This document shows, in pieces, positions 3,337-24,012 of a DNA stretch of 32,000 nt. Position numbers and translations under genes: made by a program. Origin of the DNA: an uncultured Geitlerinema sp. (GTDB taxonomy: Bacteria; Cyanobacteriota; Cyanobacteriia; Cyanobacteriales; PCC-9228); contig CAYZHY010000014.1 in assembly GCA_964477525.1 (NCBI GenBank), positions 9,501 through 41,500 on the forward strand, read 5' to 3'. Numbering within the stretch: position 1 is the first letter of the stretch; each line of letters opens with the position of its first letter. The notes under the pieces are model-generated. The model saw only the letters and a list, made by a program, of their open reading frames with translations, did not search any database and was not told where the DNA came from.

Positions 3337-3888
3337 ATGAACGTTGAGATTCTCTCCTCAGAGGAAATTCGCCGCACCATTACTCGTTTGTCCTCGGAAA
3401 TTATCGAACGGACAGCGGATTTAGAGCATTTGGCCCTTCTCGGCATTTACACCCGGGGCGTGCCTTTGGCTCATTTACTGGCAGAGCAAATCCAAGCCTT
3501 GGAATCAGTGGAAGTTTTCGTGGGGGCTCTCGATATTACCTTCTACCGCGACGATTTGGACCAAATTGGCTTGCGTACTCCTGCCAAAGATAATATTCCC
3601 CCCAGCATCAGCGGCAAAACCATTGTTTTGGTCGATGATGTAATTTACACCGGACGTACCATTCGCGCTGCTCTCAATGCCATTTACGATTACGGTAGAC
3701 CCCAAGCCGTACGTTTGGCTGTCTTGGTAGACCGCGGACACCGAGAATTGCCCATTCACCCGGATTTTATCGGCAAAAATCTACCAACTTCGAGAGACGA
3801 AAAAGTAAAAGTATGCCTGCAAAGTATTGATGGCAAAGATACTGTCGAACTACTGAAAACGCCTACTTATAGCAACTATCCTTTATGA
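3337..3888 (+). CDS. pyrR: bifunctional pyrimidine regulatory protein / uracil phosphoribosyltransferase PyrR
   Basis: 183 aa. PRPP-binding signature [17 protein letters not shown], with N-terminal and C-terminal blocks typical of PyrR. Confidence 0.88.
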
Positions 3889-4949
3889 GCGAACCATCTG
3901 CCAATGCCAACGCTGCCGGTGAGGCACAAACCCAAACCCGCAAGGCAGACCACCTGCGTGTCTGTCTGGAATCCGACGTTCAATTTCGTCAAACCACCAC
4001 GGGATTGGAACGCTATCGTTTCGTTCACTGCTGTTTGCCGGAACTCGATGGTGCTGAGGTTGATTGCAGTACCAGCTTTTTGGGGAAATTTTTACAAGCA
4101 CCGTTGTTGATTTCTTCTATGACCGGCGGTACGGAAACTGCCAAACGCATTAACGAACGACTGGCAGAAGTAGCCCAATTCTATCAAATTGCTATGGGTG
4201 TAGGCTCGATGCGGGTGGCGCTGGAAAAGCCAGAAGTGGTGGATACGTTTGCCATGCGGCGGATTGCTCCCGATGCTTTGCTGTTTGCCAATTTGGGCGC
4301 GGTGCAGCTGAACTATCAATATGGGGTTGATGAGTACCAACGGGCAGTGGATTTGCTGCAGGCGGATGCGCTAATTTTGCATTTGAATCCGTTGCAGGAA
4401 TGCGTGCAGACAAACGGAGATGTTAATTTTCAGGGATTACTTGACAAAATTGCGGATTTATGTTCTAAGGTAAGCGTACCAGTGATGGCCAAGGAAGTAG
4501 GCAATGGCATTTCGGCAGCCATGGCACAGAAATTGCAGGCGGCGGGGGTAGCGGCTATTGATGTGGCTGGTGCTGGTGGCACTTCTTGGGCTAAGGTAGA
4601 AGGACAGCGTTCGTCGAATGTGAAATCCCGGCGTTTGGGACAAACGTTTGCTGACTGGGGATTGCCGACGGCGGAGTGTTTGGAAAACATTCACCAGTTG
4701 GATTTGCCGGTTTCGCTGATTGCTTCTGGTGGCATTCAAAATGGTTTGGAAGTTGCCAAAGCGATCGCATTGGGAGCCGATTTAGTAGGATTGGCCCGAC
4801 CCTTTCTCCAAGCGGCAGCCGAGTCTTCCGAAGCTGTCTATACGTTAGCGGATATTCTGATGGCAGAAATGAAAACAGCCCTGTTTTGTACGGGCAATGC
4901 CAATTTCCAACAACTGCGCCAATCCCAGTGTTGGGAAAAAATTCAATAG
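3885..4949 (+). CDS. fni: type 2 (FMN-dependent) isopentenyl-diphosphate delta-isomerase
   Basis: 354 aa. Blocks [22 protein letters not shown]....[17 protein letters not shown] are typical of IDI-2. The start ATG (3885-3887) overlaps the pyrR TGA (3886-3888). Confidence 0.88.
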
Positions 4950-7345: not shown

Positions 7346-8422
7346 CTACCGAGAAGTGCCCACGGCTTCTTGGGAAGGAGAAGAAGCCACCACTTCCGAG
7401 GAGCGACCTTCCCAAAGTTGGGCAATCTTGCTGAAATCAACCCCAGCAGCGCGCAAAGCATGCCAGAGGTGACCTTGCAGGAAGAAAAAGGCAAGGAAAA
7501 AGTGAGCGTTAGCCAGCCAAGCACGAGGTGTATACGTTCCTGGTTCCAACTGTGCCGTATCTGCAAAATACGGGACAAAACTAACCTGCAATTCCAACGT
7601 GGGACCGTAAAATTCTGTGGGATAAGCCAGGGTATTGAAAGCGCAGAAAGCAGTCGCAACGAATCCTGCCAAGGCAATACCGCCCAACGAGTAAGACAAA
7701 ATGGCTTCTCCCGAGAAATTCAGCAAGCGTTTTGCCCAAGCAAAAGGTTCCTGCACGATGTGCCAAATTCCGCCTGCCAACAGCAAAATGGCAACGTAGA
7801 TATGACCGCCGACCAAATCCTCTAGATTATCAATCCAGAGAAAATCGGTTTGATAGCTGTAAATCACCCAAGGATTGAGGGTAGGATTGGTCACCTGACG
7901 CACCTCACCCAAATTGGGGTCGTAGAGACCACCACCAGCAGTAGCGTGGAAAACAAAGAGCAATGCACCCAATCCCAGAAAAATCAAATGGATACCGAGA
8001 ATCGACCCCAGTTTTTTCGGGTCGTTCCACTCAAAATGGAATTTGGCAGCGCCACCGGAAGCCTGTTTCAAATCGCTGGGAACGCGAACTTGGTGGAAGA
8101 AAGCACCCAATCCCAACACGCCAGAAGAAATCAGATGGACTACGCCTACCACATAAAAGGGATAGGTATCGATCGCTTCTGGACCTTCTGTCATTCCCAA
8201 GCCTAAAGCCGCCAAATGGGGCAACAGAATCAACCCCTGTTCGTACATGGGGGCTGCTGGGTTATACTGGGAGAGTTCGAAGAGGGTAAACGCACCTGCC
8301 CAAAACACAATCAGGGCAGCGTGGGCAATGTGGGCGGTGAGAAACGTACCGGATAAATTAGCCAGCCGGGCGTTTCCCGCCCACCATCCATATCGGACTT
8401 GAGAGTTTCCGTAAGTTTGCAT
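7346..8422 (-). CDS. isiA: IsiA/CP43'-family chlorophyll-binding antenna protein (third gene of cluster)
   Basis: 358 aa. N-terminus [20 protein letters not shown]...[16 protein letters not shown] and six-helix CP43-like blocks without the large lumenal loop. GAGGAGG SD lies 5 nt upstream of the ATG. Confidence 0.88.
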
Positions 8423-8442
8423 AAATGCCTCCTCAATGCAAG

Positions 8443-9843
8443 TTAGTTAATCGTGCCGCGAAAGATAGCGTCGATGGTTTCAAAGTTTTGCAAGAGAAAG
8501 TAAGCGACCCAAGCGCCGCCAACGCCACCAATCAGGAAGCTAGCGCGAAATTGGTTCCAATCTTGTTGGTTTTGCAGCCAGTAGAAGATGGTGCCTTCCC
8601 GGCAAGCAGCGAGAACGACGGTTACGATGGCGATAATGGCTACAGCCGCTAGCAAAGCCGTTTGGCGCGCCCAACTGGGTTCGGAAAGCGGACTGAGGGT
8701 GACAAACGGACCCACCAGGAAATAACCGTGGGCCATACCAATTTCCAGTCCGCGCCACATAGGCGATAAACCGCGACGGTAAACGGGCAAATTGGCCAAA
8801 AATATCAGCGTTGCTTCGCCGGAACCAGTAGCATTGGAAGCAAAGACACCGCGACGCATATCAAAGCCACCAGTACGCGATCGCACTCTGACCGCATGCC
8901 AGATGTGCCCCACCAACAGCAGCGCTGCCAAAACCACATGGGTAGTTGCCAGCCAAGTACGGGGCGTGACCGCACCATTGGCGGTTTCCGACCAACCCAA
9001 AGGTCCGTAAAACTCTACTGGATAAGCCAAATCATTGGTGGTGACAAAATAAGCCGCCAAAAATCCAGCATAGGCCAAAGCCCCCAGGCTGTAGGACAAA
9101 TAAGCTTCGCCGGACCAATACAGCACATCTCGCGCCCACTTGTAAGGCTTCGAGACCACGTGCCAAATGCCACCGACGACACACAAAAGTCCGACCCAGA
9201 TATGGCCGCCAACCAGATCTTCCAAGTTATCCACGGCAGCCATCCCTTCTGGACCTTGCACTCCTACCAGATAGCCGAAAATGCGGATGGGATTTAACGT
9301 CGGGTCGCTGACAGCGCGAACGGACTGGATATTGGCATCGTACAAACCACCAGCGTAGGTTGCCTTAAACGCCAGCAGCAACGCTCCCAGTCCCAGTAAA
9401 ATCAAGTGAATGCCCAAAATGGAGGTCATTTTGTCTTGGTCTTGCCAGTCGTAACCGAAAAAGCCAGGAATCGACTTCTCTTGCGGCAAAACCTCCGGAC
9501 CTAACAGAGCGTGGTAAACACCACCAGCTGCCAAAACGGCGGAACTCACCAAATGTAGGACCCCCACAACCAAATAGGGATAGGTATCCACAATTTGTCC
9601 GCCATCAGCAACGCCCCATCCCAACGTTGCCAAATGCGGCAGCAGAATCAGTCCTTGTTCGTATAAAGGTTCGCCGGGATGGTAACGAGAAAGTTCGAAG
9701 AGGGTAAACGCGCCTGCCCAGAAAACGATTAAGGCTGCTTGCGCCACGTGCGCTCCCAGCAATCTTCCGGAAAGGTTCGTCAAACGCGCATTGCCTGCCC
9801 ACCAACCGTAGGCTCGTTCTGGAACCGTGGTTGTTGCCGTCAT
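8443..9843 (-). CDS. CP43'/IsiA-family chlorophyll-binding protein with C-terminal PsaL-like domain
   Basis: Start trimmed to [21 protein letters not shown] (ATG 9843-9841), which overlaps the upstream gene's TGA as ATGA. The last ~132 aa (nt 8446-8841) match PsaL blocks: [30 protein letters not shown] and [25 protein letters not shown]. Confidence 0.88.
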
Positions 9844-10829
9844 AGCTTCGTGCCTCCTAATGCCTGCATGCGAGCGCGAATGGCGTGCCAAATATGGCCG
9901 GCTAAGAAAACAGCCGCCAAAGCTATATGGGCTGTCGCCAGCCAAGTGCGTGCGGTTACCGTACCGGATGCCTCTTGCAAGCCGACGGGGCCGTAAAAGA
10001 CTTCTGGATAGGCAAAGTCGTTGACAGTAACGAAATAAGCTGCCAAAACACCCATATAAGCCAAAGCGCCCAAACTATAGGAAAGATACGCTTCCCCGGA
10101 CCACACGAACAGACGTTTGGCCCAACCAAAGGGTTTGCTGGCGATATGCCATAAGCCGCCAACAACGCAGAGAAAGCCGATCCAAGCGTGACCGCCAACG
10201 AGGTCTTCTAGGTTGTGGACCGCTGCCATACCGGCGGTGCCTTGACTGCCCACCAGATAGCCGAAAATCCGAGCTGGGTTGAAGGTGGGTTGGGTGACCA
10301 CCCGTACTGCTTCTGCATTGGGGTCGTACAAACCGCCCCAAAACATGGCTTTGGTGACCAGCAACCAAGCACCCAGTCCCAGCAAAACTAGGTGAATGCC
10401 CAGAATGGTGGTCATTTTGTTGGTATCCTGCCAGCTGTAGCCGAAAAAGCCAGCAAAGGTATCGTCTCGCGACAGTACCCGCGGACCGAAAACGGCGTGG
10501 TAAATGCCACCAGCGCCCAAGACGGCAGAACCAACTAGATGCAAAATGCCAATGACGAAGAAGGGATAGGTATCTGCAATTTCTCCGCCGTCAGCAACAC
10601 CCAATCCTAGGGTGGCTAGATGCGGCAGCAGAATCAATCCTTGTTCGTACATGGGTTGTGCTGGGTTGTATTGGGCGAGTTCGAAGAGGGTAAAGGAACC
10701 TGCCCAAAAGGTGATTAAACCGCTGTGTGCGACGTGCGCGCCCAACAGTTTGCCCGATAAATCTGTAAAGCGAGCGTTCCCTGCCCACCAACCGTAGTTG
10801 GATTGCGAAGGTAACGTGGTTGTACTCAT
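9840..10829 (-). CDS. CP43'/IsiA-family chlorophyll-binding protein (first gene of cluster)
   Basis: Start trimmed to [21 protein letters not shown] (ATG 10829-10827), preceded by GAGGAGG. 329 aa. Closest by eye to the N-terminal part of the fusion gene ([31 protein letters not shown]). Confidence 0.88.
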
Positions 10830-10857
10830 GGATGAGGACCTCCTCAACGGTGGCTCA

Positions 10858-10880
10858 TTGTTGAAAAAAATATTCAACAA
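10858..10880. promoter_or_regulatory. perfect palindrome TTGTTGAA-N7-TTCAACAA in the leader of the IsiA-like operon
   Basis: Read directly. 8-bp arms with a 7-nt A/T spacer, 29-51 nt upstream of the first ATG. Could be an operator or a 5'-UTR hairpin. Confidence 0.3.
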
Positions 10881-10928
10881 CCTTGGGTATCCATTCAAAC
10901 TTTATTGGCAAAAATTTGCAAGTGGTTT

Positions 10929-16201: not shown

Positions 16202-16798
16202 ATGGATGCCAAACGAAGAAAAAAGGTCAGCAAATATCTTTCCAAAATTCTGCGGCACGATCCCCATCGAATTGGTTTGGATTTGGATCCGGGGGGTTGG
16301 GTGAATTTGGAAACGTTGCTATCGGCTTTTCAAGAATATGGGGTGGAGATTGCTGCCGAAGAAGTTGTGGAAGTCATTCGCAAATCGGATAAACCGCGGT
16401 TTGCGTTAGAACCTATAGATGAAGAACAAAGTGGCAACCCAGCAGCCAATCCTTCACAGTTTCGCATTCGCGCAGCGTACGGACATTCGTTTCCTGTAGA
16501 TTTGGAACGCACGCCAGAACCACCACCGTCGGTTCTCTATCACGGAACGGCAGAACAATTTGTTCGTTCGATCCAACAACAAGGGTTACAATCGATGGGA
16601 CGGCAGTTCGTTCATCTTTATCAATATCCAGAAGGGGCGCTGGCTGTGGGCAGACGCAAGGGGCGATCGCGGCTTTTTTCCATAGATGCTGCTACTATGT
16701 ATGCGGAGGGATACTCTTTTTATCATGTGGGCGAGGGGATTTGGCTCACATTTGCTGTGCCACCCATTTATTTAAAGTTGCACTCGACAAAATCTTAG
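16202..16798 (+). CDS. kptA: RNA 2'-phosphotransferase, KptA/Tpt1 family
   Basis: 198 aa. SKYLSKILRHDP..GL.LD.GGWV, IRAAYGHS, LYHGT and GRQFVHL blocks. Starts 9 nt after the cysK stop. Confidence 0.82.
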   Translation: MDAKRRKKVSKYLSKILRHDPHRIGLDLDPGGWVNLETLLSAFQEYGVEIAAEEVVEVIRKSDKPRFALEPIDEEQSGNPAANPSQFRIRAAYGHSFPVDLERTPEPPPSVLYHGTAEQFVRSIQQQGLQSMGRQFVHLYQYPEGALAVGRRKGRSRLFSIDAATMYAEGYSFYHVGEGIWLTFAVPPIYLKLHSTKS

Positions 16799-16889: not shown

Positions 16890-17114
16890 TTAAAGATCGA
16901 TACCAACTTGTTGAACTGGTTCATCAATCATATTAAGAAGATCGATGTTCAATTGGCGCCTTGCGTTCCTTCCTAAAAAGCTCCAAAAATGCCAAAGGGT
17001 TTCTCGTTCTGCCTCTGGAAAGTTCTTCGATAGGTCAAAAGTTTCCATGGCAGCCGAAAAAGCTACCTGGTAGATTTCTGAATCTCGATGGTTTCCCACT
17101 TGATAGGCTTTCAT
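16890..17114 (-). pseudogene. four-helix-bundle protein (23S rRNA-IVS-type), apparently internally deleted
   Basis: N-terminus EIYQVAFSAAMETFDLSKNFPEAERETL and C-terminus LLNMIDEP resemble this family, but the central helices are missing (74 aa versus a typical ~120). The family call is from memory. Confidence 0.4.
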
Positions 17115-17115
17115 C

Positions 17116-17633
17116 TTACTTCTCTACTTTCCCCTCCTCGATCGCACGAGTTGGTAAATAGCTAGCGGCGATCGCAACACACAACCACCATACCGTATTA
17201 ATCTGCGGACGATACCACACTGTATCCACCAAACCATGTACCATCAATCCTACCATAGCCGCCAGCGTTGCCATCAGCCAATATCCCTGGGGATTGCTAC
17301 GATCGCGTAGGGCACAGACTTGCCGCCAGCCACTGGCAAAACTCACCAGCAGAAACCACAAAAACGATGCCAAACCGATAAATCCAGTTTCCACAGCCAC
17401 TTCTAAAAATACCGAATAGGCACTCAAGGCACTGTAGTTGGGACGCATGTAGAGGGGATATACTTGGTTAAAAGCATCGTTGCCCGGTCCTATTCCTAGG
17501 ATAGGGCGATCGCGTATCATATCGATAACTGCCGCCCACACATTCATGCGGAAATTGTTGCTGCTGTCTTCACGACCCGCAAAAATACTCATAGCGCGAT
17601 CGCGAATGGGGTCTACAAATAACACTGCTAGCA
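17116..17633 (-). pseudogene. duplicated 3' fragment of ictB (left copy, lacks the 5' ~900 nt)
   Basis: Encodes the C-terminal ~169 aa of the 19887..21296 protein. Amino acids are identical except the last residue (K vs T). The rest of the 254-aa track ORF is read-through, antisense to the methyltransferase. Confidence 0.85.
17126..17633. repeat. 508-bp direct repeat, left copy
   Basis: Compared line by line with 19897-20404 (offset 2771). No mismatch was seen by eye. Confidence 0.9.
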
Positions 17634-17693
17634 ATGATATAATCTTTATCCCTGACCTCAACAAAAATATCCGAACTGGATAGAGTTCATAGT

Positions 17694-19031
17694 ATGAACG
17701 TAAGACCAATCGTAATCGACCTTTTTTCTGGAGCAGGTGGCTTAAGTTTAGGTTTTGAGCAAGCTGGATTTGATGTGGTGGCTGCAGTTGAAATAGATCC
17801 AATCCATGCCGCCATCCATAAATATAATTTTCCATATGGCATTGTTCTACCAACTTCCGTAATCTATCTGAGCGCAACAACGATTCGCGAACAGGCAGGA
17901 ATAGGAGATGACGAAATCAATGTGGTGGTTGGTGGTCCTCCTTGTCAGGGATTTTCGCTTATTGGAAAAAGGTCTCTTGACGATCCTAGAAATAGATTGG
18001 TTCGTGAATTCGTTCGCCTAGTCGAAGAGTTATCGCCACAATTCTTTCTTTTTGAAAACGTAAAGGGGTTAACTGTTGGCAAACATCGTCAAGTTCTAGA
18101 GGAATTGGTAGAACAATTTCATGGGATTGGATATAACGTGCAAATGCCTTGGCAAGTGCTTAATGCTATGAATTACAGAGTGCCACAAGATCGCGAGCGA
18201 TTGTTTCTTCTTGGTGCCAGGCAGGGAATATCAATGCCTTCCTATCCTTCTCCTATCACAGAGCCTTTATCTTCGTTGGACTTAGAAATTCCTGGCTTAC
18301 TTGCTAAAACTCCTACATGCAAAGATGCGTTGGGAGATTTGCCCGACGCAGAATTGTTTGAAGAGCTAAAAGACAGTGATGCTGTACATACAAATAAATG
18401 GGGAATCCCTTCTGATTATGGTAAAGAAATGAGATGCATCAGCGAAAAAGCGTGGCATTTTGGCTATCCCCGAAAATGGGAACCAAATTTACTTACATCA
18501 AGTGCCAGAACAAATCATACAAATATATCACGTAGAAGATTTTCTCAAACCCAACCAGGAAGCGTAGAACCTGTATCGCGCTTTTTCAAGCTGTCGCCAG
18601 AGGGAATTTCAAATACCCTTCGCGCTGGAACTGATTCAGCACGCGGTGCCTTTACAAGTCCAAGACCAATCCATTACGAGAAAAATAGATGTATAACGGT
18701 TCGGGAAATGGCTCGTTTGCATGGTTTTCCGGATTGGTTTCGTTTTCATACGACAAAATGGCATGGTGCTAGACAAATAGGAAATGCTGTTCCTCCACCC
18801 CTGGCAAGAGCGATCGCTGCGGAATTTATTAGAGCTGCTGGTATTGAGGTATTGAAACCAAAAGAATTAATACAGTTTGGCGAACGTGCATTACTGGAAA
18901 TGGATATGACGGAAGCAGCTAATTTTTGGGGGATAGATGTGCCTGTTGCCAAACGAGATCGTAAGAGTGGTGCGAAAAAACGGAAACAAGAAGAAATCGA
19001 AGCATTACATATTGGAGAAATGGAAATTTAG
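17694..19031 (+). CDS. DNA (cytosine-5)-methyltransferase
   Basis: 445 aa. Motif I DLFSGAGG, motif IV GGPPCQGFS, motif VI FENV, motif VIII QDRERLF, motif IX TVREMARLHGFPDWF, motif X GNAVPPPLA. A long variable (TRD) region lies between motifs VIII and IX. Confidence 0.92.
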   Translation: MNVRPIVIDLFSGAGGLSLGFEQAGFDVVAAVEIDPIHAAIHKYNFPYGIVLPTSVIYLSATTIREQAGIGDDEINVVVGGPPCQGFSLIGKRSLDDPRNRLVREFVRLVEELSPQFFLFENVKGLTVGKHRQVLEELVEQFHGIGYNVQMPWQVLNAMNYRVPQDRERLFLLGARQGISMPSYPSPITEPLSSLDLEIPGLLAKTPTCKDALGDLPDAELFEELKDSDAVHTNKWGIPSDYGKEMRCISEKAWHFGYPRKWEPNLLTSSARTNHTNISRRRFSQTQPGSVEPVSRFFKLSPEGISNTLRAGTDSARGAFTSPRPIHYEKNRCITVREMARLHGFPDWFRFHTTKWHGARQIGNAVPPPLARAIAAEFIRAAGIEVLKPKELIQFGERALLEMDMTEAANFWGIDVPVAKRDRKSGAKKRKQEEIEALHIGEMEI

Positions 19032-19035
19032 AAAA

Positions 19036-19845
19036 ATGGATAAGAAGTCAGATAACAATCCCCAGAGCCGATATATGGCTTTAATTGAAAAAGTATTCTT
19101 TGACCGTTACCAAACAGGTGACAGCAGGATAGAGTTTGCACGTGAAGACCTTGTTAGGGCAGCAAACGAACTTGATATTAAATTACCCAAGAATCTTGGA
19201 GATGTGGTGTATTCTATACGATACCGCACACCGATGCCGAATAGTATCTTGCAAATAAAGCCAGAGGGAATGGAATGGATTATTGAAGGCGCAGGTCGCT
19301 CAAAATATGTTTTCAAGTTGGTTCACATTAACAGAATTGTTCCGAACCAAGAACTTGTAGCTATTAAAATTCCAGATTCAACACCTGAAATTGTTAATGC
19401 ATATTCCTTGTCTGACGAGCAAGCGTTACTCGCAATTGTTAGATACAATCGTTTAATCGATATTTTTCTTGGCTTAACTGCATATTCTCTACAAAACCAT
19501 CTCAGAACCACGGTATCGTCAATTGGTCAAGTTGAAATAGATGAAATTTATGTAGCTGTTGATAAGCACGGCAGGCAGTTTGTTTTGCCCGTACAAGCTA
19601 AGGGAGGGAGCGATCGACTTTCTGTTGTTCAAACAAAACAAGATATTGCTTGTTGTGCAGAGAAATATCCCAATCTTATTTGTAGAGCTATATCTGCTCA
19701 ATTTGTGGAAAATAAATTAATTGCATTATTTGAGCTTACAATTGAAAACGATGAAGTGAAAATAGTAAACGAAAGACACTATAACCTAGTTCCATCCGAT
19801 TGGATCGACGATAACGATCTAAAAACCTATTCGCAACGTTCGTAA
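19036..19845 (+). CDS. putative restriction endonuclease partner (uncharacterised; possible PD-(D/E)xK-like core)
   Basis: Start trimmed to the ATG at 19036, 4 nt after the methyltransferase stop. 269 aa. Candidate nuclease core EIDEIYVAVDKHGRQFVLPVQAKGG (D..QxK). I do not recognise the family. Confidence 0.5.
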   Translation: MDKKSDNNPQSRYMALIEKVFFDRYQTGDSRIEFAREDLVRAANELDIKLPKNLGDVVYSIRYRTPMPNSILQIKPEGMEWIIEGAGRSKYVFKLVHINRIVPNQELVAIKIPDSTPEIVNAYSLSDEQALLAIVRYNRLIDIFLGLTAYSLQNHLRTTVSSIGQVEIDEIYVAVDKHGRQFVLPVQAKGGSDRLSVVQTKQDIACCAEKYPNLICRAISAQFVENKLIALFELTIENDEVKIVNERHYNLVPSDWIDDNDLKTYSQRS

Positions 19846-19886
19846 TCTAAAGATATCTATAGAGTAGTAACTGCTAGCCAGTTGCC

Positions 19887-21296
19887 CTATGTCTCCACTT
19901 TCCCCTCCTCGATCGCACGAGTTGGTAAATAGCTAGCGGCGATCGCAACACACAACCACCATACCGTATTAATCTGCGGACGATACCACACTGTATCCAC
20001 CAAACCATGTACCATCAATCCTACCATAGCCGCCAGCGTTGCCATCAGCCAATATCCCTGGGGATTGCTACGATCGCGTAGGGCACAGACTTGCCGCCAG
20101 CCACTGGCAAAACTCACCAGCAGAAACCACAAAAACGATGCCAAACCGATAAATCCAGTTTCCACAGCCACTTCTAAAAATACCGAATAGGCACTCAAGG
20201 CACTGTAGTTGGGACGCATGTAGAGGGGATATACTTGGTTAAAAGCATCGTTGCCCGGTCCTATTCCTAGGATAGGGCGATCGCGTATCATATCGATAAC
20301 TGCCGCCCACACATTCATGCGGAAATTGTTGCTGCTGTCTTCACGACCCGCAAAAATACTCATAGCGCGATCGCGAATGGGGTCTACAAATAACACTGCT
20401 AGCACCACCACCGCTGCACTAGCCCCCAAAACACCTGGTATTGTCCATATTCGCCACTTTTGCGGCAGTTTGGGGGTCCACCAATAGACCAACATCAGCA
20501 CAAACACAAAGCCAGCCGCCAAAAAGCCAATCCAACCACCACGACTGTAGGTAAGAACCAAACACACCGAGTTGGTAACAAACATCCCCACCGCCAACGC
20601 CTTGCAAGTGATGCGACGCCAGGCAAAAATCGCCCCCATACTGAACGCTACCGCCGGAATCAAATAGCCAGCCAGCAAGTTGGGATTTCCCAGAAAGCTA
20701 TAAACCCTGGTAATTTCGGCAGTTGCCGATTTTGGATCGGTCCAAGTTGCTAGGGGGTCTGCCCCAAAGTACCACTGACGAATGCCATAGGCACTAACAA
20801 TCAGCGAAATATGCAAGTAAACGCCTACAAACGCATCTTGGACTCTTCTGCCAATGCGCGATCGCAATAACTTAGCCGCCAAAGCAAACAGCAACAGGTA
20901 CAAAGTCAGCTCAACCCATCCCGTAAACGCTGCTTCCCGCACCGGTGACAGCGCCATCGCTACGGTAGAAATGGCCCAGTACAGCAAGACCAGCAAATGA
21001 ATTGGCGTTAGAATCGCTTGGGGGGATCGCCAGTCTTCCGTAACCGTCAGCATCGCCCACAATCCGGCACAGGCAATTAACAAAACACCAATGAGTGAGG
21101 TAGGCACAAACGGTCCCACCACAAAAACCAAACTCACCAGCAACGCGCCCAAGGGTTCTGCCCACTGCATCAGCCAGCTACCCTGACGCCAAGCAGCCAG
21201 CGGACCATTTGTCAAGCGAAACAAGATGCTTTGACGCTGCCATTGCTGGAAGGGAATTTGGGATAGGGTCAGTGGTTGCCAAACAGAACGTACCAT
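19887..21296 (-). CDS. ictB: IctB-family membrane protein (O-antigen-ligase-like; putative inorganic-carbon-related transporter)
   Basis: 469 aa, polytopic. Blocks recalled from Synechococcus IctB: VYSFLGNPNLLAGYL, LTYSRGGW, SIFAGREDSSNNFRMNVW, ILGIGPGNDAFNQVYPLY, ALSAYSVFLEVAVETG, HGLVDTVWYRP. Confidence 0.82.
   Translation of the reverse strand: MVRSVWQPLTLSQIPFQQWQRQSILFRLTNGPLAAWRQGSWLMQWAEPLGALLVSLVFVVGPFVPTSLIGVLLIACAGLWAMLTVTEDWRSPQAILTPIHLLVLLYWAISTVAMALSPVREAAFTGWVELTLYLLLFALAAKLLRSRIGRRVQDAFVGVYLHISLIVSAYGIRQWYFGADPLATWTDPKSATAEITRVYSFLGNPNLLAGYLIPAVAFSMGAIFAWRRITCKALAVGMFVTNSVCLVLTYSRGGWIGFLAAGFVFVLMLVYWWTPKLPQKWRIWTIPGVLGASAAVVVLAVLFVDPIRDRAMSIFAGREDSSNNFRMNVWAAVIDMIRDRPILGIGPGNDAFNQVYPLYMRPNYSALSAYSVFLEVAVETGFIGLASFLWFLLVSFASGWRQVCALRDRSNPQGYWLMATLAAMVGLMVHGLVDTVWYRPQINTVWWLCVAIAASYLPTRAIEEGKVET
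19897..20404. repeat. 508-bp direct repeat, right copy (within intact ictB)
   Basis: Identical by eye to 17126-17633. Confidence 0.9.
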
Positions 21297-21354: not shown

Positions 21355-24012
21355 CTAAGGACGAATAAAATGCGCCCAAACATTGCCATCGGGACCGCAG
21401 ACTTCATCCATATAGCCATAAGGATATACCAACCCACCGCCGTACACATCCGAGTACCCGGTCATGGCATTGCCCCACGGGTCGTTGACAATGTAACCTG
21501 ACTGATTGTATCCGATAATGCAGAGAATATGGCCGCTGGCTGTAAAATCGCCAGCAATAGGCACTGGTCGCCGGTTTACTAGTTCGTCCATTACTGCCGA
21601 CCAATTGCGACTGGTACTAAAACTCGTCTGAAAGTCATAGGCTTTGATGAGGTTGGAAAGAAGGTTGTGAGAGGTCCAAGACCCGTAGCCAGCCTGATTG
21701 ATACACCATTGCAGCAGTTCGTCTTCTAGCTGCCCGCCCGATTGCGATCGCACGCCGTAGAAATAAAATACCATAGCTAGAGTGGTCACGTTGCAGGTAG
21801 ACCAGGAATAGCGTGGATTGTCTACTTGAGAAAAATAGGGAACATCGATTTCCAACTGGTCGGGAAATGGGTCAAATGTCTTACCGCCGCGACGCATCAA
21901 CACGTGGTCGGGAAATAAATAGCCAGTATTGCCAAAATTTTCAAATTCTTCGGTCATCGCCGTTTTGAGATGGTTCTCTTCAATGGCGTAGCTACTGACG
22001 CCGTAAACTCGACCGCTAGGCAGCGTCACTTTCTCCGAACTTGACAGTTGGTTGGAATCGGTCGGTCGCTTTTTCAAGATTGTTGTTTGACGCATGGTGG
22101 CGGTTAAAGCTTCCGGGTCGTAGGCAACTTTGCGATCGCCTTTTTTAATGGTTACGTGACGCCAGTATAAATAACCAACATTTCCCAAACCATCGACCGA
22201 TTCTGCCAGGGTGACACGAAAATGTCCTTGCATGGCAGCATAGCCGGTAATTTCAAAGACAGTTCCCAAGGCAATTTTGGTTTTTTGATTGGCTGGCAAC
22301 AATGCAGCATCCTTGGGTTGGGCTTTGAAAAACGTTGTATGTTCGATCAACAATTGGGCTTGCCCTTCCACGGTTGGTACATCTTTCACGTCAAAAACCA
22401 ACTGTCGCTCTCCCCGATACAAATTGACGTGGTCTTCAAAAAAATAACCAAACTCACCTACCGGCGCAATCGGCGTTTCTAACAATACTTTCAAATGACC
22501 GTCTACAAAGCCATATTGTTTGACAGCAAAGGTTTTATCCCCAGCAATTTTCGTACGTTGTTGGGAATTGAGCGCTCCAGAATCGGCTGGTGTCATTTTA
22601 AAAATGGTATCGCGTTTGGTGGTAAGTTTTAAATCGGTCCCCTCACTAAGAGGTTCTTCGCTTACTGTAATGTAAACAAGTTGGCTGTCCACCAGTTCGC
22701 TGTTACTGTTCAATCCGCGAAAGTTCAACCACCGCAGACCTGCTTGTTGGAATCCCTTTTCCAAAACCACTTGCCAAATCCCGGTATTGGGATTGATGTT
22801 TACTGGCAAAGAATACTTATTTTCTGCCAACGCAGAAATTTTGGCGACGGTATTGGGTTCAAACTTTCCTTGCAAAACCGTTTTCTCACCTGCGATCGCA
22901 TATTTGGGCTTGGTATAGCTCAATCCCGAACCGGCTTGAATGGTTTTGTCACCCTTGCGAAGTTCCACAAAATCTGGGTAAAGATAGCCCGTATTGCCAA
23001 AATCCGGTAAATTTTCGCTAAAAGAAACTTTCAAGTGACCTTTCACCCAAGTATATCCCACCACACCATAGACCATCCCTTCCGTAAGGGTTGTTTTTTC
23101 CGAACTCGATAGTTCCGCTGCTGGTTGCGGTTGTTTTTTAAAGGCTGTTGTTTTCAAAATATGGACATTGACGGCTTTGGGATCGAACTTGACCAAATTT
23201 CCATCTTGCAACAACCGTATGTGAGGAGCATACAAATAACCAATTCTTCCGAAATTGGGCAAACTTTTGGATAAAGTTACCCGAAAATGCCCTTCCACAC
23301 AAGCATATCCAGTAACTAAAAAATGTTCCCCAAAGAGCAAATCTTGCTTTTGCTGGTCCAAAAGTTGTTCGGAAGGTTCTGGCGTGGCTTTGATTTTGGT
23401 AGCGTGGGCAATCCAAATTTGCCAAAATCCCGGTGGCGATTTGGGCAAATCTTCAACTTGAAAGTGAAGGATTTCCCCATTGTTCCCCTTGGTTAAATGA
23501 ACGTGGGGTTCGTAGAAATATCCAAAGGCACCATCTTCTAGTTCTACCTTCAAATGGTTCTTGATGAAGCCGTAGCGAGTAACTTTAAATCCTTGTGAAG
23601 TTTTGACTCTTGCCTTTTCTTGGCTTTTGAGATTGTCTGAAGAAATGGGGGCAGCTTTGAAATAGGTTTCCCGCAAAATTTTGATTTCCAGGGAATCTCC
23701 CTCAATCATGGGTTTGCTGCTAACGGTAACAAATACGCGCTGGCTGCTGACTAGTTCCCCGTTGCTGTCGAAACCTTTCAAACGCAACCAGCGAATGCCA
23801 GCTTGACTAAAGCCTGATTCGAGAGGTACTTGCCAAATGCCGTTTTCCCGGTTCGTACTGACGGGAAGGTCGTATTTATCTTCCACGACCACCGAAATTT
23901 TGGCAATGCGTTCCGAGTCAAACGTTCCGTTGAGGGCAGTGGGATGCTTGACGGGAACCTCTTTGGGGCTGTTGTAGGTAAGGGGTTGGTTCTCGCTGGT
24001 AGAATTCAGCAT
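21355..24012 (-). CDS. large repeat protein: 2 x (beta-sandwich-like domain + three SH3b-like repeats) + C-terminal C39-like (papain-fold) cysteine peptidase domain
   Basis: 885 aa. Module A (aa ~26-378) and module B (aa ~379-712) align colinearly, e.g. KISVVVEDKYDLPV..NGIWQVPLESGFSQAGIRWL with KISALAENKYSLPV..TGIWQVVLEKGFQQAGLRWL. The C-terminus has YFSQ..STCNVTTLAM, SGHILCIIGY and NDPWG (Cys/His/Asp candidates). Confidence 0.75.
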   Translation of the reverse strand: MLNSTSENQPLTYNSPKEVPVKHPTALNGTFDSERIAKISVVVEDKYDLPVSTNRENGIWQVPLESGFSQAGIRWLRLKGFDSNGELVSSQRVFVTVSSKPMIEGDSLEIKILRETYFKAAPISSDNLKSQEKARVKTSQGFKVTRYGFIKNHLKVELEDGAFGYFYEPHVHLTKGNNGEILHFQVEDLPKSPPGFWQIWIAHATKIKATPEPSEQLLDQQKQDLLFGEHFLVTGYACVEGHFRVTLSKSLPNFGRIGYLYAPHIRLLQDGNLVKFDPKAVNVHILKTTAFKKQPQPAAELSSSEKTTLTEGMVYGVVGYTWVKGHLKVSFSENLPDFGNTGYLYPDFVELRKGDKTIQAGSGLSYTKPKYAIAGEKTVLQGKFEPNTVAKISALAENKYSLPVNINPNTGIWQVVLEKGFQQAGLRWLNFRGLNSNSELVDSQLVYITVSEEPLSEGTDLKLTTKRDTIFKMTPADSGALNSQQRTKIAGDKTFAVKQYGFVDGHLKVLLETPIAPVGEFGYFFEDHVNLYRGERQLVFDVKDVPTVEGQAQLLIEHTTFFKAQPKDAALLPANQKTKIALGTVFEITGYAAMQGHFRVTLAESVDGLGNVGYLYWRHVTIKKGDRKVAYDPEALTATMRQTTILKKRPTDSNQLSSSEKVTLPSGRVYGVSSYAIEENHLKTAMTEEFENFGNTGYLFPDHVLMRRGGKTFDPFPDQLEIDVPYFSQVDNPRYSWSTCNVTTLAMVFYFYGVRSQSGGQLEDELLQWCINQAGYGSWTSHNLLSNLIKAYDFQTSFSTSRNWSAVMDELVNRRPVPIAGDFTASGHILCIIGYNQSGYIVNDPWGNAMTGYSDVYGGGLVYPYGYMDEVCGPDGNVWAHFIRP

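What the first reader, a model, noticed from the sequence alone, without database searches (positions are those of the whole stretch)
17116..20404. R-M-like two-gene cassette inserted at the 3' end of ictB, bracketed by a perfect 508-bp direct repeat (long target duplication)
17126-17633 and 19897-20404 are identical by line-by-line reading (offset 2771). They flank a 2263-bp AT-rich segment encoding an m5C methyltransferase and a tightly linked 269-aa putative nuclease. The repeat is the last ~169 codons of ictB.

The right copy continues into a full-length 469-aa gene. Its last codon is changed (K to T) and its stop codon is supplied by the insert. The left copy keeps the native ...VEK-stop and native downstream flank but has no 5' part. 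The host gene therefore survives the insertion.

There is no transposase, integrase or terminal inverted repeat. The 9-mer ACTGCTAGC at the inner end of the repeat (17624-17632) recurs 18 nt from the other junction (19870-19878), a possible microhomology footprint. The insert has 1 HIP1 site against 3 in each 508-bp repeat. As I recall, comparative genomics of Helicobacter R-M units described a transposase-free mode called insertion with long target duplication, and this matches it. The repeats also allow precise excision by homologous recombination, making this a reversible defence locus.
Basis: partly seen in the sequence, partly recalled or inferred. Interest (0 to 1): 0.8.

Follow-up and report, generated by a model that had tools for sequence, protein, structure and literature searches.

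The report
Restriction-modification cassette duplicating ictB's end
A two-gene restriction-modification unit sits just after the cyanobacterial gene ictB, between two identical 508-bp copies of that gene's end; this is a real example of a known, recombinase-free way such selfish defence genes settle in genomes, and relatives show it passing between lineages by homologous recombination.

Summary
Window 17126-17633 and 19897-20404 are 508/508 identical. They flank a 2263-bp, GC-poor insert carrying an m5C methyltransferase and a 269-aa type II restriction endonuclease.

A read-derived contig of the same species (100% identical) carries one ictB, one repeat copy and no cassette. This is the empty site. 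All criteria that Furuta et al. 2010 used for 'insertion with long target duplication' are met, and no transposase, integrase or terminal inverted repeat is present.

The perfect repeat is probably not the scar of an insertion made in this genome.
- The same cassette sits at the same place in other Geitlerinema-like lineages, with the same right-hand junction.
- That junction includes a 10-nt ictB tail (VET-stop) of the PCC 9228 type.
- The repeats in those lineages are each lineage's own ictB allele (557 bp in one case).
- One pair of cassettes is 99.7% identical while the flanking ictB pieces differ by 5.6%.
- Cassette synonymous divergence is about half that of the neighbouring host genes.

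The unit therefore spreads, and can be lost, by homologous recombination through its duplicated ictB arms. It is a new member of a known kind and of moderate interest.

The parts
17116..17633 (-). Orphan 3' fragment of ictB (ictB'). It contains the native stop and last codons (17116-17125, ...VEK-stop) and the left copy of the exact repeat (17126-17633). It continues into the native flank (74-aa ORF 16890-17114, KptA 16202-16798).
   Evidence: Exact repeat. Wzy_C domain on the ORF through it. Contiguous with this flank in the empty-site contig L089 at 100% identity.
17634..17693 (+). Cassette leader. TGATATAAT (17635-17643) reads as an extended -10 promoter at the very left edge of the insert, followed by a ~50-nt 5' UTR.
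   Evidence: The promoter is my reading of the sequence. The simple -35/-10 scan found no + strand site here. The motif and position are conserved in L090, L178 and L179.
17694..19031 (+). m5C DNA methyltransferase, 445 aa. The motifs GPPCQGFS, ENV, QDRER and GNAVPP are present.
   Evidence: PF00145 5e-70, TIGR00675 4e-59, PADLOC MTase_II 2e-169. PDB 3g7u 2e-66, M.HaeIII 6e-39. Motifs read from the translation.
19036..19845 (+). Type II restriction endonuclease, 269 aa. It starts 4 nt after the methyltransferase stop.
   Evidence: PADLOC REase_II PDLC03404 7e-128. More than 8000 homologues, nearly always paired M->R. AlphaFold model pLDDT 84.6; the only fold matches are weak and are mostly PD-(D/E)XK nucleases. 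Invariant E167, D169, D176, Q187-A-K189.
19846..19896 (.). 41-nt spacer (19846-19886) plus a 10-nt ictB-like tail (19887-19896 on the - strand: G GAG ACA TAG) that supplies the last codon and stop of the full-length ictB. The spacer contains the 9-mer ACTGCTAGC (19870-19878).
   Evidence: Same tail and spacer in L090, L178 and L179. The tail encodes ET-stop, as in the native PCC 9228-type IctB, whereas the native allele here has EK-stop.
19897..20404 (-). Right copy of the exact 508-bp repeat, forming codons ~297-466 of the intact ictB.
19887..21296 (-). Full-length ictB (469 aa), intact. It is followed upstream by the 885-aa Peptidase_C39_2 gene (21355-24012), as in all relatives.
   Evidence: TIGR00947 2e-184. 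Synteny in L086, L087, L090 and L173.

Best explanation
**What it is.** A 2.26-kb selfish type II restriction-modification operon (promoter, m5C methyltransferase, then endonuclease) is lodged immediately after ictB. It lies between the intact gene and an orphan copy of the gene's last ~518 bp. This architecture is the one called 'insertion with long target duplication'.

**How it moves.** It encodes no recombinase. The unit did not arise in this genome. It is an allele of the ictB locus that circulates among Geitlerinema-like lineages. The ictB sequence on both sides of the cassette serves as homology arms. DNA taken up from a carrier can therefore recombine into a naive ictB. This could occur by ends-in or gap-repair recombination, or by single-crossover integration of an excised circle; either rebuilds the duplication from the recipient's own allele.

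**What follows from that.**
- The two copies are identical to each other and to the local empty allele.
- A few donor-type bases survive at the inner edges (the VET-stop tail and the spacer).
- Recombination between the two copies deletes the cassette and restores the native VEK-stop gene, so filled and empty alleles coexist.

**What it does once resident.** The methyltransferase protects host DNA and the endonuclease cuts unmodified DNA, giving defence plus post-segregational addiction.

**Shown versus inferred.**
- Shown: the anatomy, the empty site, the shared junction across lineages, and the contrast in divergence between cassette and flanks.
- Inferred: the recombination route, the promoter, enzyme activity and specificity, and how the very first insertion happened.
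For: **Repeat and cassette.**
- 508/508 identity.
- R-M identity.

**Empty sites.**
- Same species, 100% identity: L089 joins ictB 5' part, one repeat, and the VEK-stop, 74-aa ORF and KptA flank.
- Three other lineages also have empty sites: L086, L087/L088 and L173-L177.

**Same cassette, place and right junction in L090.**
- The repeat there is 557 bp with 1 mismatch and is of L090's own allele.
- It is 91% identical to the window's repeat.
- The tail encodes ET-stop, as in PCC 9228-type IctB only, among hypervariable C-termini.

**Divergence contrasts.**
- L178/L179: cassette plus 22-nt junction filler is 99.69% identical to L090 (7 mismatches in 2276 nt). The flanking ictB pieces differ at 11 of 197 positions. 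Fisher p = 1e-8.
- Window versus L090: synonymous divergence of the cassette is 0.175 (CI 0.14-0.21). For ictB it is 0.277 (0.23-0.33), and for host genes combined 0.352.

**Read evidence.** Independent read sets break exactly at the repeat edges.

**No mobility machinery.** No terminal inverted repeat and no mobility genes.

**Family-wide pattern.** 7 of 26 other loci have flanking direct repeats of at least 55 bp, against 8 of 239 control positions. Two of these duplicate the 3' end of a ~1240-aa gene and have no integrase.

**Published precedent.** Furuta et al. 2010; Aras et al. 2001, cited in PMC2194252.
Against: - No long read or spanning read pair was available. The order flank-repeat-insert-repeat-ictB rests on two assemblies (this window and L090) and on graph branch points.
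- The left inner junction differs between lineages. The window lacks 40 nt of ictB and a 22-nt filler that L090 and L178 have. This needs either an extra 62-nt deletion or a separate integration event.
- The cassette is still 4-8% diverged between the window and L090, so that transfer, if lateral, is not recent.
- The cassette genes are AT-rich (GC3 0.30), which may bias synonymous-rate comparisons.
- Competence of this organism, enzyme activity and specificity were not tested.
- The origin of the first duplication is not recoverable from these data.
Confidence: 0.6

Rival explanations
1. De novo insertion in this genome. A naked R-M fragment was joined illegitimately at two staggered points 508 bp apart in ictB, for example on sister chromosomes. 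This created a fresh perfect duplication. The 9-mer ACTGCTAGC would be a microhomology scar. In a variant, the fragment carried a short ictB tail that anchored one end by homology while the other end joined illegitimately, and this happened independently in each lineage.
For: - The repeat is perfect and identical to the empty allele.
- The left junction differs between the window and L090 in both target position (40 nt) and cassette end (22 nt), as expected for independent illegitimate joins.
- The 9-mer has a shuffle probability of 0.025.
- Polyploid cyanobacteria offer sister copies (general knowledge).
Against: - The right junction, with its ictB-like VET-stop tail and spacer, is identical in the window, L090, L178 and L179. 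At least that junction was inherited, not made here.
- L178 and L090 share even the 22-nt filler while sitting in different ictB alleles. This shows transfer with the junctions preserved.
- In L090 the 9-mer is not at the repeat end.
Confidence: 0.2
2. A single ancient insertion in the common ancestor of these lineages, inherited vertically. The two ictB copies are kept identical within each genome by gene conversion (concerted evolution). Empty sites arise repeatedly by deletion between the repeats.
For: - The cassette occupies the same place with the same right junction in diverged lineages.
- The repeats are 100% identical within a genome but 91% between lineages.
- Diverged bases persist only at the extreme ends of the homology, where conversion tracts cannot reach.
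- Furuta et al. also report left-right identity above repeat-versus-empty-site identity in H. pylori.
Against: - Cassette synonymous divergence is about half that of the adjacent host genes.
- The L178/L090 cassettes are 99.7% identical while their flanks are ~94% identical. Vertical descent cannot give this without recombination.
- Most sampled lineages are empty.
Confidence: 0.15
3. Assembly artefact. The true molecules are an empty chromosome plus a separate 2771-bp circle or tandem array (one repeat plus cassette), or a mixture of strains. A short-read assembler threaded these into one path.
For: - A de Bruijn graph cannot distinguish flank-R-insert-R-ictB from (flank-R-ictB) plus circle(R-insert) when the repeat (508 bp) exceeds the k-mer or read length.
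- Logan contigs break at the repeat edges.
- Empty and filled signals occur in the same sample series.
Against: - A 2.8-kb circle with no replication gene could not be inherited.
- Two independent assemblies of different lineages give the same order (window; L090 at 92x coverage).
- In L090 the copies differ by 1 base and have distinct inner-edge remnants.
- The cassette-side junctions exist in at least 7 read sets.
Confidence: 0.04
4. Integration by a site-specific recombinase or transposase acting in trans, with the repeat serving as an attachment site.
For: Genomic islands often target gene 3' ends and rebuild them (general knowledge). One related locus (L100) has an IS110 transposase overlapping its repeat.
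Against: - The insert holds only M and R.
- There are no terminal inverted repeats.
- Repeat lengths of 508 and 557 bp with different inner ends are far longer and more variable than att sites.
- No recombinase lies in the 32-kb window near the locus.
Confidence: 0.01

Closest known systems
Insertion of R-M gene complexes with long target duplication (Nobusato, Uchiyama and Kobayashi 2000, cited as reference 37 in Furuta, Abe and Kobayashi 2010, NAR 38:2428, PMC2853133)
   Same: - R and M genes alone in a short, GC-deviant insert.
- No mobility genes.
- Long direct repeats that align to a single copy in an empty-site genome.
- Repeat sizes of hundreds of bp (H. pylori 417/423 and 388/397).
- Left-right identity higher than repeat-versus-empty-site identity.
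- A cyanobacterial case (Microcystis, 88/88) is already listed.
   Different: - At 508-557 bp this repeat is longer than any entry I read in their tables.
- The duplicated target is the coding 3' end of a conserved gene, which is thereby preserved.
- Multiple lineages here show the unit being passed on with its junctions. That paper proposed this ('virus-like life cycle') but did not document it.
hpyIIRM of Helicobacter pylori: deletion via flanking direct repeats and horizontal reconstitution (Aras et al. 2001, Mol Microbiol 42:369; cited in PMC2194252)
   Same: An R-M pair flanked by direct repeats. Filled and empty alleles coexist in one species. Loss occurs by recombination between the repeats and regain by recombination with DNA from carriers (for the citation; details are from my knowledge of the paper).
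   Different: That system was tested experimentally in a naturally competent pathogen and, as I recall, has much shorter repeats. Here everything is inferred from sequence, in a filamentous cyanobacterium, and the repeat is a gene end.
Campbell-type or 'ends-in' homologous integration of a DNA carrying an internal or 3' gene fragment (classical genetics of integrative vectors)
   Same: The product is insert flanked by a direct duplication of the homology. If the fragment includes the gene's 3' end, one intact gene copy remains. Reversal occurs by recombination between the repeats.
   Different: This is a natural selfish element rather than a vector. A simple single crossover with a 5-9% diverged donor would leave chimeric repeats, which are not seen. 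Gap repair from the recipient or later conversion must be added.
Homology-facilitated illegitimate recombination (de Vries and Wackernagel 2002; from my knowledge)
   Same: Foreign DNA is integrated with one homologous anchor and one illegitimate, microhomology-based joint. This would fit the constant right junction and the variable left junction.
   Different: As I recall, it usually deletes recipient DNA rather than duplicating it. It was not tested here.

Membership tests
Insertion with long target duplication (criteria of Furuta et al. 2010) | Both an R and an M gene homologue lie in the inserted sequence | tested here: met
   PF00145 / TIGR00675 / PADLOC MTase_II, and PADLOC REase_II 7e-128.
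Insertion with long target duplication (criteria of Furuta et al. 2010) | Insert shorter than 20 kb and free of other mobile-element genes | tested here: met
   The insert is 2263 bp. The only non-overlapping ORFs are M and R. No terminal inverted repeat: score 10 against a null of 8.2 +/- 1.8.
Insertion with long target duplication (criteria of Furuta et al. 2010) | Flanking direct repeat longer than 30 bp | tested here: met
   508/508; 556/557 in L090.
Insertion with long target duplication (criteria of Furuta et al. 2010) | An empty-site genome with similarity on both sides and one copy of the repeated sequence | tested here: met
   L089 (same species, 100% identical), plus L086, L087/L088 and L173-L177.
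Insertion with long target duplication (criteria of Furuta et al. 2010) | The duplication was created by the insertion event itself in this genome | tested here: inconclusive
   The right junction and ictB-like tail are shared with other lineages, so that junction was inherited. The left junction differs. The first event cannot be reconstructed.
Type II restriction-modification system | Separate, adjacent methyltransferase and endonuclease genes with intact catalytic motifs | tested here: met
   The M->R pair is 4 nt apart. The m5C motifs IV (PCQ), VI (ENV), VIII and X are present (translation). The REase family is conserved, with invariant acidic and lysine residues. The pairing is kept in 78 of 80 related loci.
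Type II restriction-modification system | Demonstrated sequence-specific cleavage and matching methylation | not testable with these tools
   No REBASE, methylome or assay was available. GGCC is the most avoided palindrome in host DNA (z = -14) and is absent from the cassette. This is only a hint.
PD-(D/E)XK nuclease fold (for the endonuclease) | Structural match to a solved PD-(D/E)XK nuclease | tested here: inconclusive
   Model pLDDT 84.6. The best Foldseek hits are Cas4-family ACE1 (prob 0.97, E = 3e-3, TM 0.26), HincII, AdnA and EndoMS; all are weak. No PDB sequence relative.
Integrase- or transposase-borne island | A recombinase gene within or beside the element, and short defined att sites or inverted repeats | tested here: not met
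IctB family (host gene) | Full-length match above the curated cut-off | tested here: met
   TIGR00947 613.6 bits against a cut-off of 366.4.

The most novel reading that the evidence does not exclude
The duplicated gene end may not be a passive scar. It may be the element's targeting device. On this reading, a recombinase-free R-M cassette carries pieces of a conserved host gene's 3' end as portable homology arms. It can then 'home' to the same gene end in lineages up to ~10% diverged without inactivating the gene, possibly helped by breaks made by its own endonuclease in unmethylated recipients. The same logic may explain why this R-M family sits in direct-repeat-flanked insertions at gene ends in unrelated bacteria (7 of 26 loci).
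Probability: 0.3. Interest if true: 0.6.

Novelty: new member of a known kind. Interest (0 to 1): 0.38.

Why it matters
- It adds a clean, well-controlled cyanobacterial example to a poorly understood mode of gene mobility that needs no recombinase: perfect 508-bp repeats, a 100%-identical empty allele, and filled alleles in at least three host backgrounds.
- The multi-lineage comparison gives sequence-level evidence for a step the Kobayashi group only hypothesised. The R-M unit is passed on with its junctions intact into different host alleles.
- Practically, the locus is a natural presence/absence polymorphism in a Geitlerinema-like population. It could be used to measure excision and re-acquisition rates.
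- It is a barrier to, and a landmark for, genetic manipulation of these strains.
- It also shows that ictB, a gene of interest for carbon-uptake engineering, tolerates replacement of its C-terminal residue.

Tried and rejected
- **Genome-contig scan with IctB.** The best hit was only 67% identical (Coleofasciculus). The source genome and its close relatives are not in that collection, so it gave no empty site.
- **Exact look-up of the window's IctB and the 885-aa peptidase.** Neither is on record.
- **Logan contigs carrying KptA.** They stop at window 17040 or 16956, before the repeat, for reasons I could not establish. No repeated 16-mer occurs there.
- **Defining cassette boundaries from distant homologous loci.** Flanks outside M and R are unrelated. 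Several loci have what reads like a vsr gene upstream, which is absent here.
- **Specificity.** The plasmid annotations 'M.AplI' and 'M.HaeIII' next to homologues are similarity labels, not evidence. Palindrome avoidance points to GGCC but is not specific to this cassette.
- **Promoter scan.** It found no canonical -35/-10 pair on the + strand. The extended -10 is my own reading.
- **Microhomology.** The window 9-mer and a different 10-mer in L090 (ATCTAAAAAC, in both the junction filler and the REase 3' end) do not give a consistent story.
- **Extra ictB bases beyond the 557-bp repeat in L090's left copy.** A 5/6 match to the window allele is too short to interpret.

Full report
**1.

- At offset 2771 the longest exact run is 508 nt: 17126-17633 = 19897-20404. 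One search reports the same pair, capped at 300 nt.
- One mismatch (17125/19896) is followed by four more matching bases.
- The enclosed 2263 bp (17634-19896) has GC 0.404, against 0.50 in the repeat and 0.472 in the window. GC3 is about 0.30, against 0.47-0.55 in neighbouring genes. It has one HIP1 site, against three per repeat.
- No other long repeat of this kind occurs in the window.

**2. What the genes are**

- 17694-19031 encodes a 445-aa m5C DNA methyltransferase: PF00145 5e-70, TIGR00675, PADLOC MTase_II 2e-169. Its closest solved relatives are 3g7u and M.HaeIII.
- Four nucleotides later, 19036-19845 encodes a 269-aa protein. It has no Pfam match but hits the PADLOC type II endonuclease model PDLC03404 at 7e-128.
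- That protein family is very large (more than 8000 hits, 57-84% identical across phyla). In 78 of 80 metagenomic loci it directly follows a homologous methyltransferase on the same strand.
- The family also occurs on 5.2-kb mobilisable Klebsiella and Salmonella plasmids.
- An AlphaFold model (pLDDT 84.6) has only weak structural neighbours. The top ones are PD-(D/E)XK nucleases.
- Specificity is unknown. GGCC is by far the most avoided palindrome in host DNA of this clade (57 observed, 301 expected) and is absent from the cassette. This is a lead only.
- The gene at 19887-21296 (-) is a full-length IctB (TIGR00947, 2e-184).
- Flanks are a 74-aa ORF and KptA/Tpt1 on the left and an 885-aa Peptidase_C39_2 protein on the right.

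**3. It is a real insertion polymorphism**

- The closest relatives are Geitlerinema sp. PCC 9228-type cyanobacteria, with IctB 93% identical. The window appears to come from a 45,431-bp NCBI contig.
- Logan contig L089 (SRR14300213) joins the ictB 5' part (window 20892-20405), one repeat copy, and the left flank (17125-16493). Identity to the window is 100%. This is the empty site, and it shows that the native gene ends VEK-stop.
- Empty sites with the same peptidase-ictB synteny also occur in three other lineages: L086, L087/L088 and L173-L177.
- Cassette-only contigs from several read sets end exactly 30 nt into the repeat on both sides (L001, L002, L091, L179). A k=31 graph does this at true repeat boundaries.
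- No transposase, integrase or terminal inverted repeat is present.
- Every criterion used by Furuta, Abe and Kobayashi (2010, PMC2853133) for 'insertion with long target duplication' is met.
- That paper already lists H. pylori repeats of ~400 bp and a Microcystis case. The kind is therefore known.

**4. The perfect repeat is probably not the scar of an insertion made here**

- *A second filled lineage.* An independent assembly from a lineage 9-13% diverged (L090, ENA ERZ4750308) has the same cassette at the same place. The order there is amidase, 75-aa ORF, ictB' (187 aa), M, R, ictB, peptidase. Its repeat is 557 bp with one mismatch and is of its own ictB allele, 91% identical to the window's.
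- *Right inner junction.* It is the same in both lineages: REase stop, 41-nt spacer, then ...ACA TAG.
- *The tail is an ictB remnant.* IctB C-termini are hypervariable among 80 cyanobacteria, and only PCC 9228-type alleles end GKVET-stop. The window's full-length copy ends VET-stop although its native allele ends VEK-stop. The last 10 nt are therefore an ictB remnant that belongs to the travelling unit. Homology between the two copies really extends through the stop codon, where 6 of 10 bases are identical.
- *Left inner junction.* It differs between lineages. L090 keeps 40 more nt of ictB plus a 22-nt filler before the shared start ATGATATAAT.

**5. Evidence for lateral movement by homologous recombination**

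- *Synonymous divergence, window versus L090.* The cassette is 0.175 (95% CI 0.14-0.21). ictB is 0.277 (0.23-0.33), the peptidase is 0.395, and host genes combined are 0.352.
- *A sharper contrast.* Contigs L178 (JGI 3300037341) and L179 (SRR12689551) carry a cassette plus filler that is 99.69% identical to L090's (7 mismatches in 2276 nt). The ictB pieces at their ends differ from L090's at 11 of 197 positions, with Fisher p = 1e-8.
- *Conclusion.* The same cassette, with its inner junctions, therefore sits in different ictB alleles. This requires crossovers inside the repeat.

**6. The route I consider most likely**

The ictB sequences on either side of the cassette act as homology arms. Two integration routes would rebuild both copies largely from the recipient's allele:
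- ends-in or gap-repair integration of a linear fragment;
- integration of an excised repeat-plus-cassette circle, followed by conversion.

Either explains three things:
- the 508/508 identity;
- the identity of both copies to the empty allele;
- the few donor-type bases at the inner edges.

Recombination between the copies removes the cassette and restores the native gene. This gives the observed coexistence of alleles. The same behaviour was reported for hpyIIRM in H. pylori (Aras et al. 2001, cited in PMC2194252).

**7. Rivals**

- *Fresh insertion in this genome.* It could be anchored by the short ictB tail at one end and joined illegitimately at the other. It remains possible for the window lineage, because its left junction is unique.
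- *The 9-mer.* It has a shuffle probability of 0.025, but L090 lacks it at the repeat end and has an unrelated 10-mer coincidence instead.
- *Purely vertical descent with concerted evolution.* This explains the repeat identities but not the divergence contrasts.
- *Assembly artefact.* An empty chromosome plus a circle cannot be excluded formally without spanning reads. It is unlikely, because the circle would have no replication function and two independent assemblies agree.
- *The very first duplication.* How it arose cannot be recovered from these data.

**8. Wider pattern**

- Among 26 other loci of this R-M family with enough flank, 7 have flanking direct repeats of 55-167 bp. Only 8 of 239 control positions do.
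- In two of them (L141, L151) the repeat is the 3' end of a ~1240-aa gene, and no integrase lies between the copies.
- One locus (L100) involves an IS110 transposase.
- This agrees with the published enrichment of flanking repeats around R-M genes.

**9. Verdict**

What this analysis adds is that the unit is shared across lineages with its junctions intact, and that the repeat's perfection reflects recombination with the resident allele rather than a one-off target duplication. Interest is moderate.

Noticed in passing
window 7346-10898 (- strand): Three tandem paralogous CP43/IsiA-like chlorophyll-binding genes (PF00421). The middle one (8443-9945) is fused to a PsaL domain (PF02605). They account for the only other repeat family in the window (7954-8253, 9372-9671, 10358-10657; 61-76% identical).
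   Followed up: partly
window 16956 and 17040: Logan contigs from three samples that carry KptA (L083, L084, L085; 99.9% identical to the window) stop at 17040 or 16956, inside or near the 74-aa ORF. They do not run on to the repeat edge at 17126. No repeated 16-mer explains this, so there may be further strain variation in the flank.
   Followed up: partly
window 16890-17114 (- strand): The 74-aa ORF directly follows the native ictB stop (TAAGATG overlap). It has no Pfam or NCBIfam match. The ictB-KptA intergenic region is unrelated in the 90%-identical lineage L087, and the whole downstream neighbourhood differs in PCC 9228-type lineages, which have an amidase instead of KptA.
   Followed up: partly
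window 17116-17880 (- strand) and 17661-17634: The orphan ictB fragment is extended by an in-frame ORF (254 aa, TTG start) running antisense into the methyltransferase start. A promoter-like site (TTGAGG-16-TATCAT) on the - strand points into it. L090 has a 187-aa equivalent. Whether it is expressed is unknown.
   Followed up: no
host DNA of window plus L086, L087, L090 flanks: GGCC is extremely under-represented (57 observed, 301 expected, z = -14). TGCA, GCGC and GATC are also depleted, while CGATCG (the HIP1 core) is not.
   Followed up: no
L093, L101, L099 upstream of the methyltransferase: In several distant loci the M-R pair is preceded by an ORF ending ...WQCELK, which reads like a Vsr mismatch endonuclease. 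The window and L090 cassettes lack it (my reading, not tested).
   Followed up: no
L141 315-417 / 3803-3905 and L151 314-431 / 7873-7990: Two unrelated metagenomic organisms carry this R-M family, with variable extra genes (PIN, AAA_14/DUF4143, EcsC). The insertion lies between 103-118-bp direct repeats of the 3' end of a ~1240-aa gene. By my reading its C-terminus (...DYATRKGLSLEVCEKWLAPIRGY) resembles methionine synthase MetH. No integrase was found.
   Followed up: partly
L090 2702-2723 and 4905-4914: The 22-nt filler at L090's left junction contains ATCTAAAAAC, which recurs in the 3' end of the endonuclease gene about 30 nt before its stop. This 10-mer coincidence is unexplained.
   Followed up: no
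window 21355-24012 (- strand): The 885-aa protein has a C-terminal Peptidase_C39_2 domain and a long, internally repetitive N-terminal region. It is the most diverged gene in the neighbourhood between lineages (synonymous divergence 0.29-0.46).
   Followed up: no
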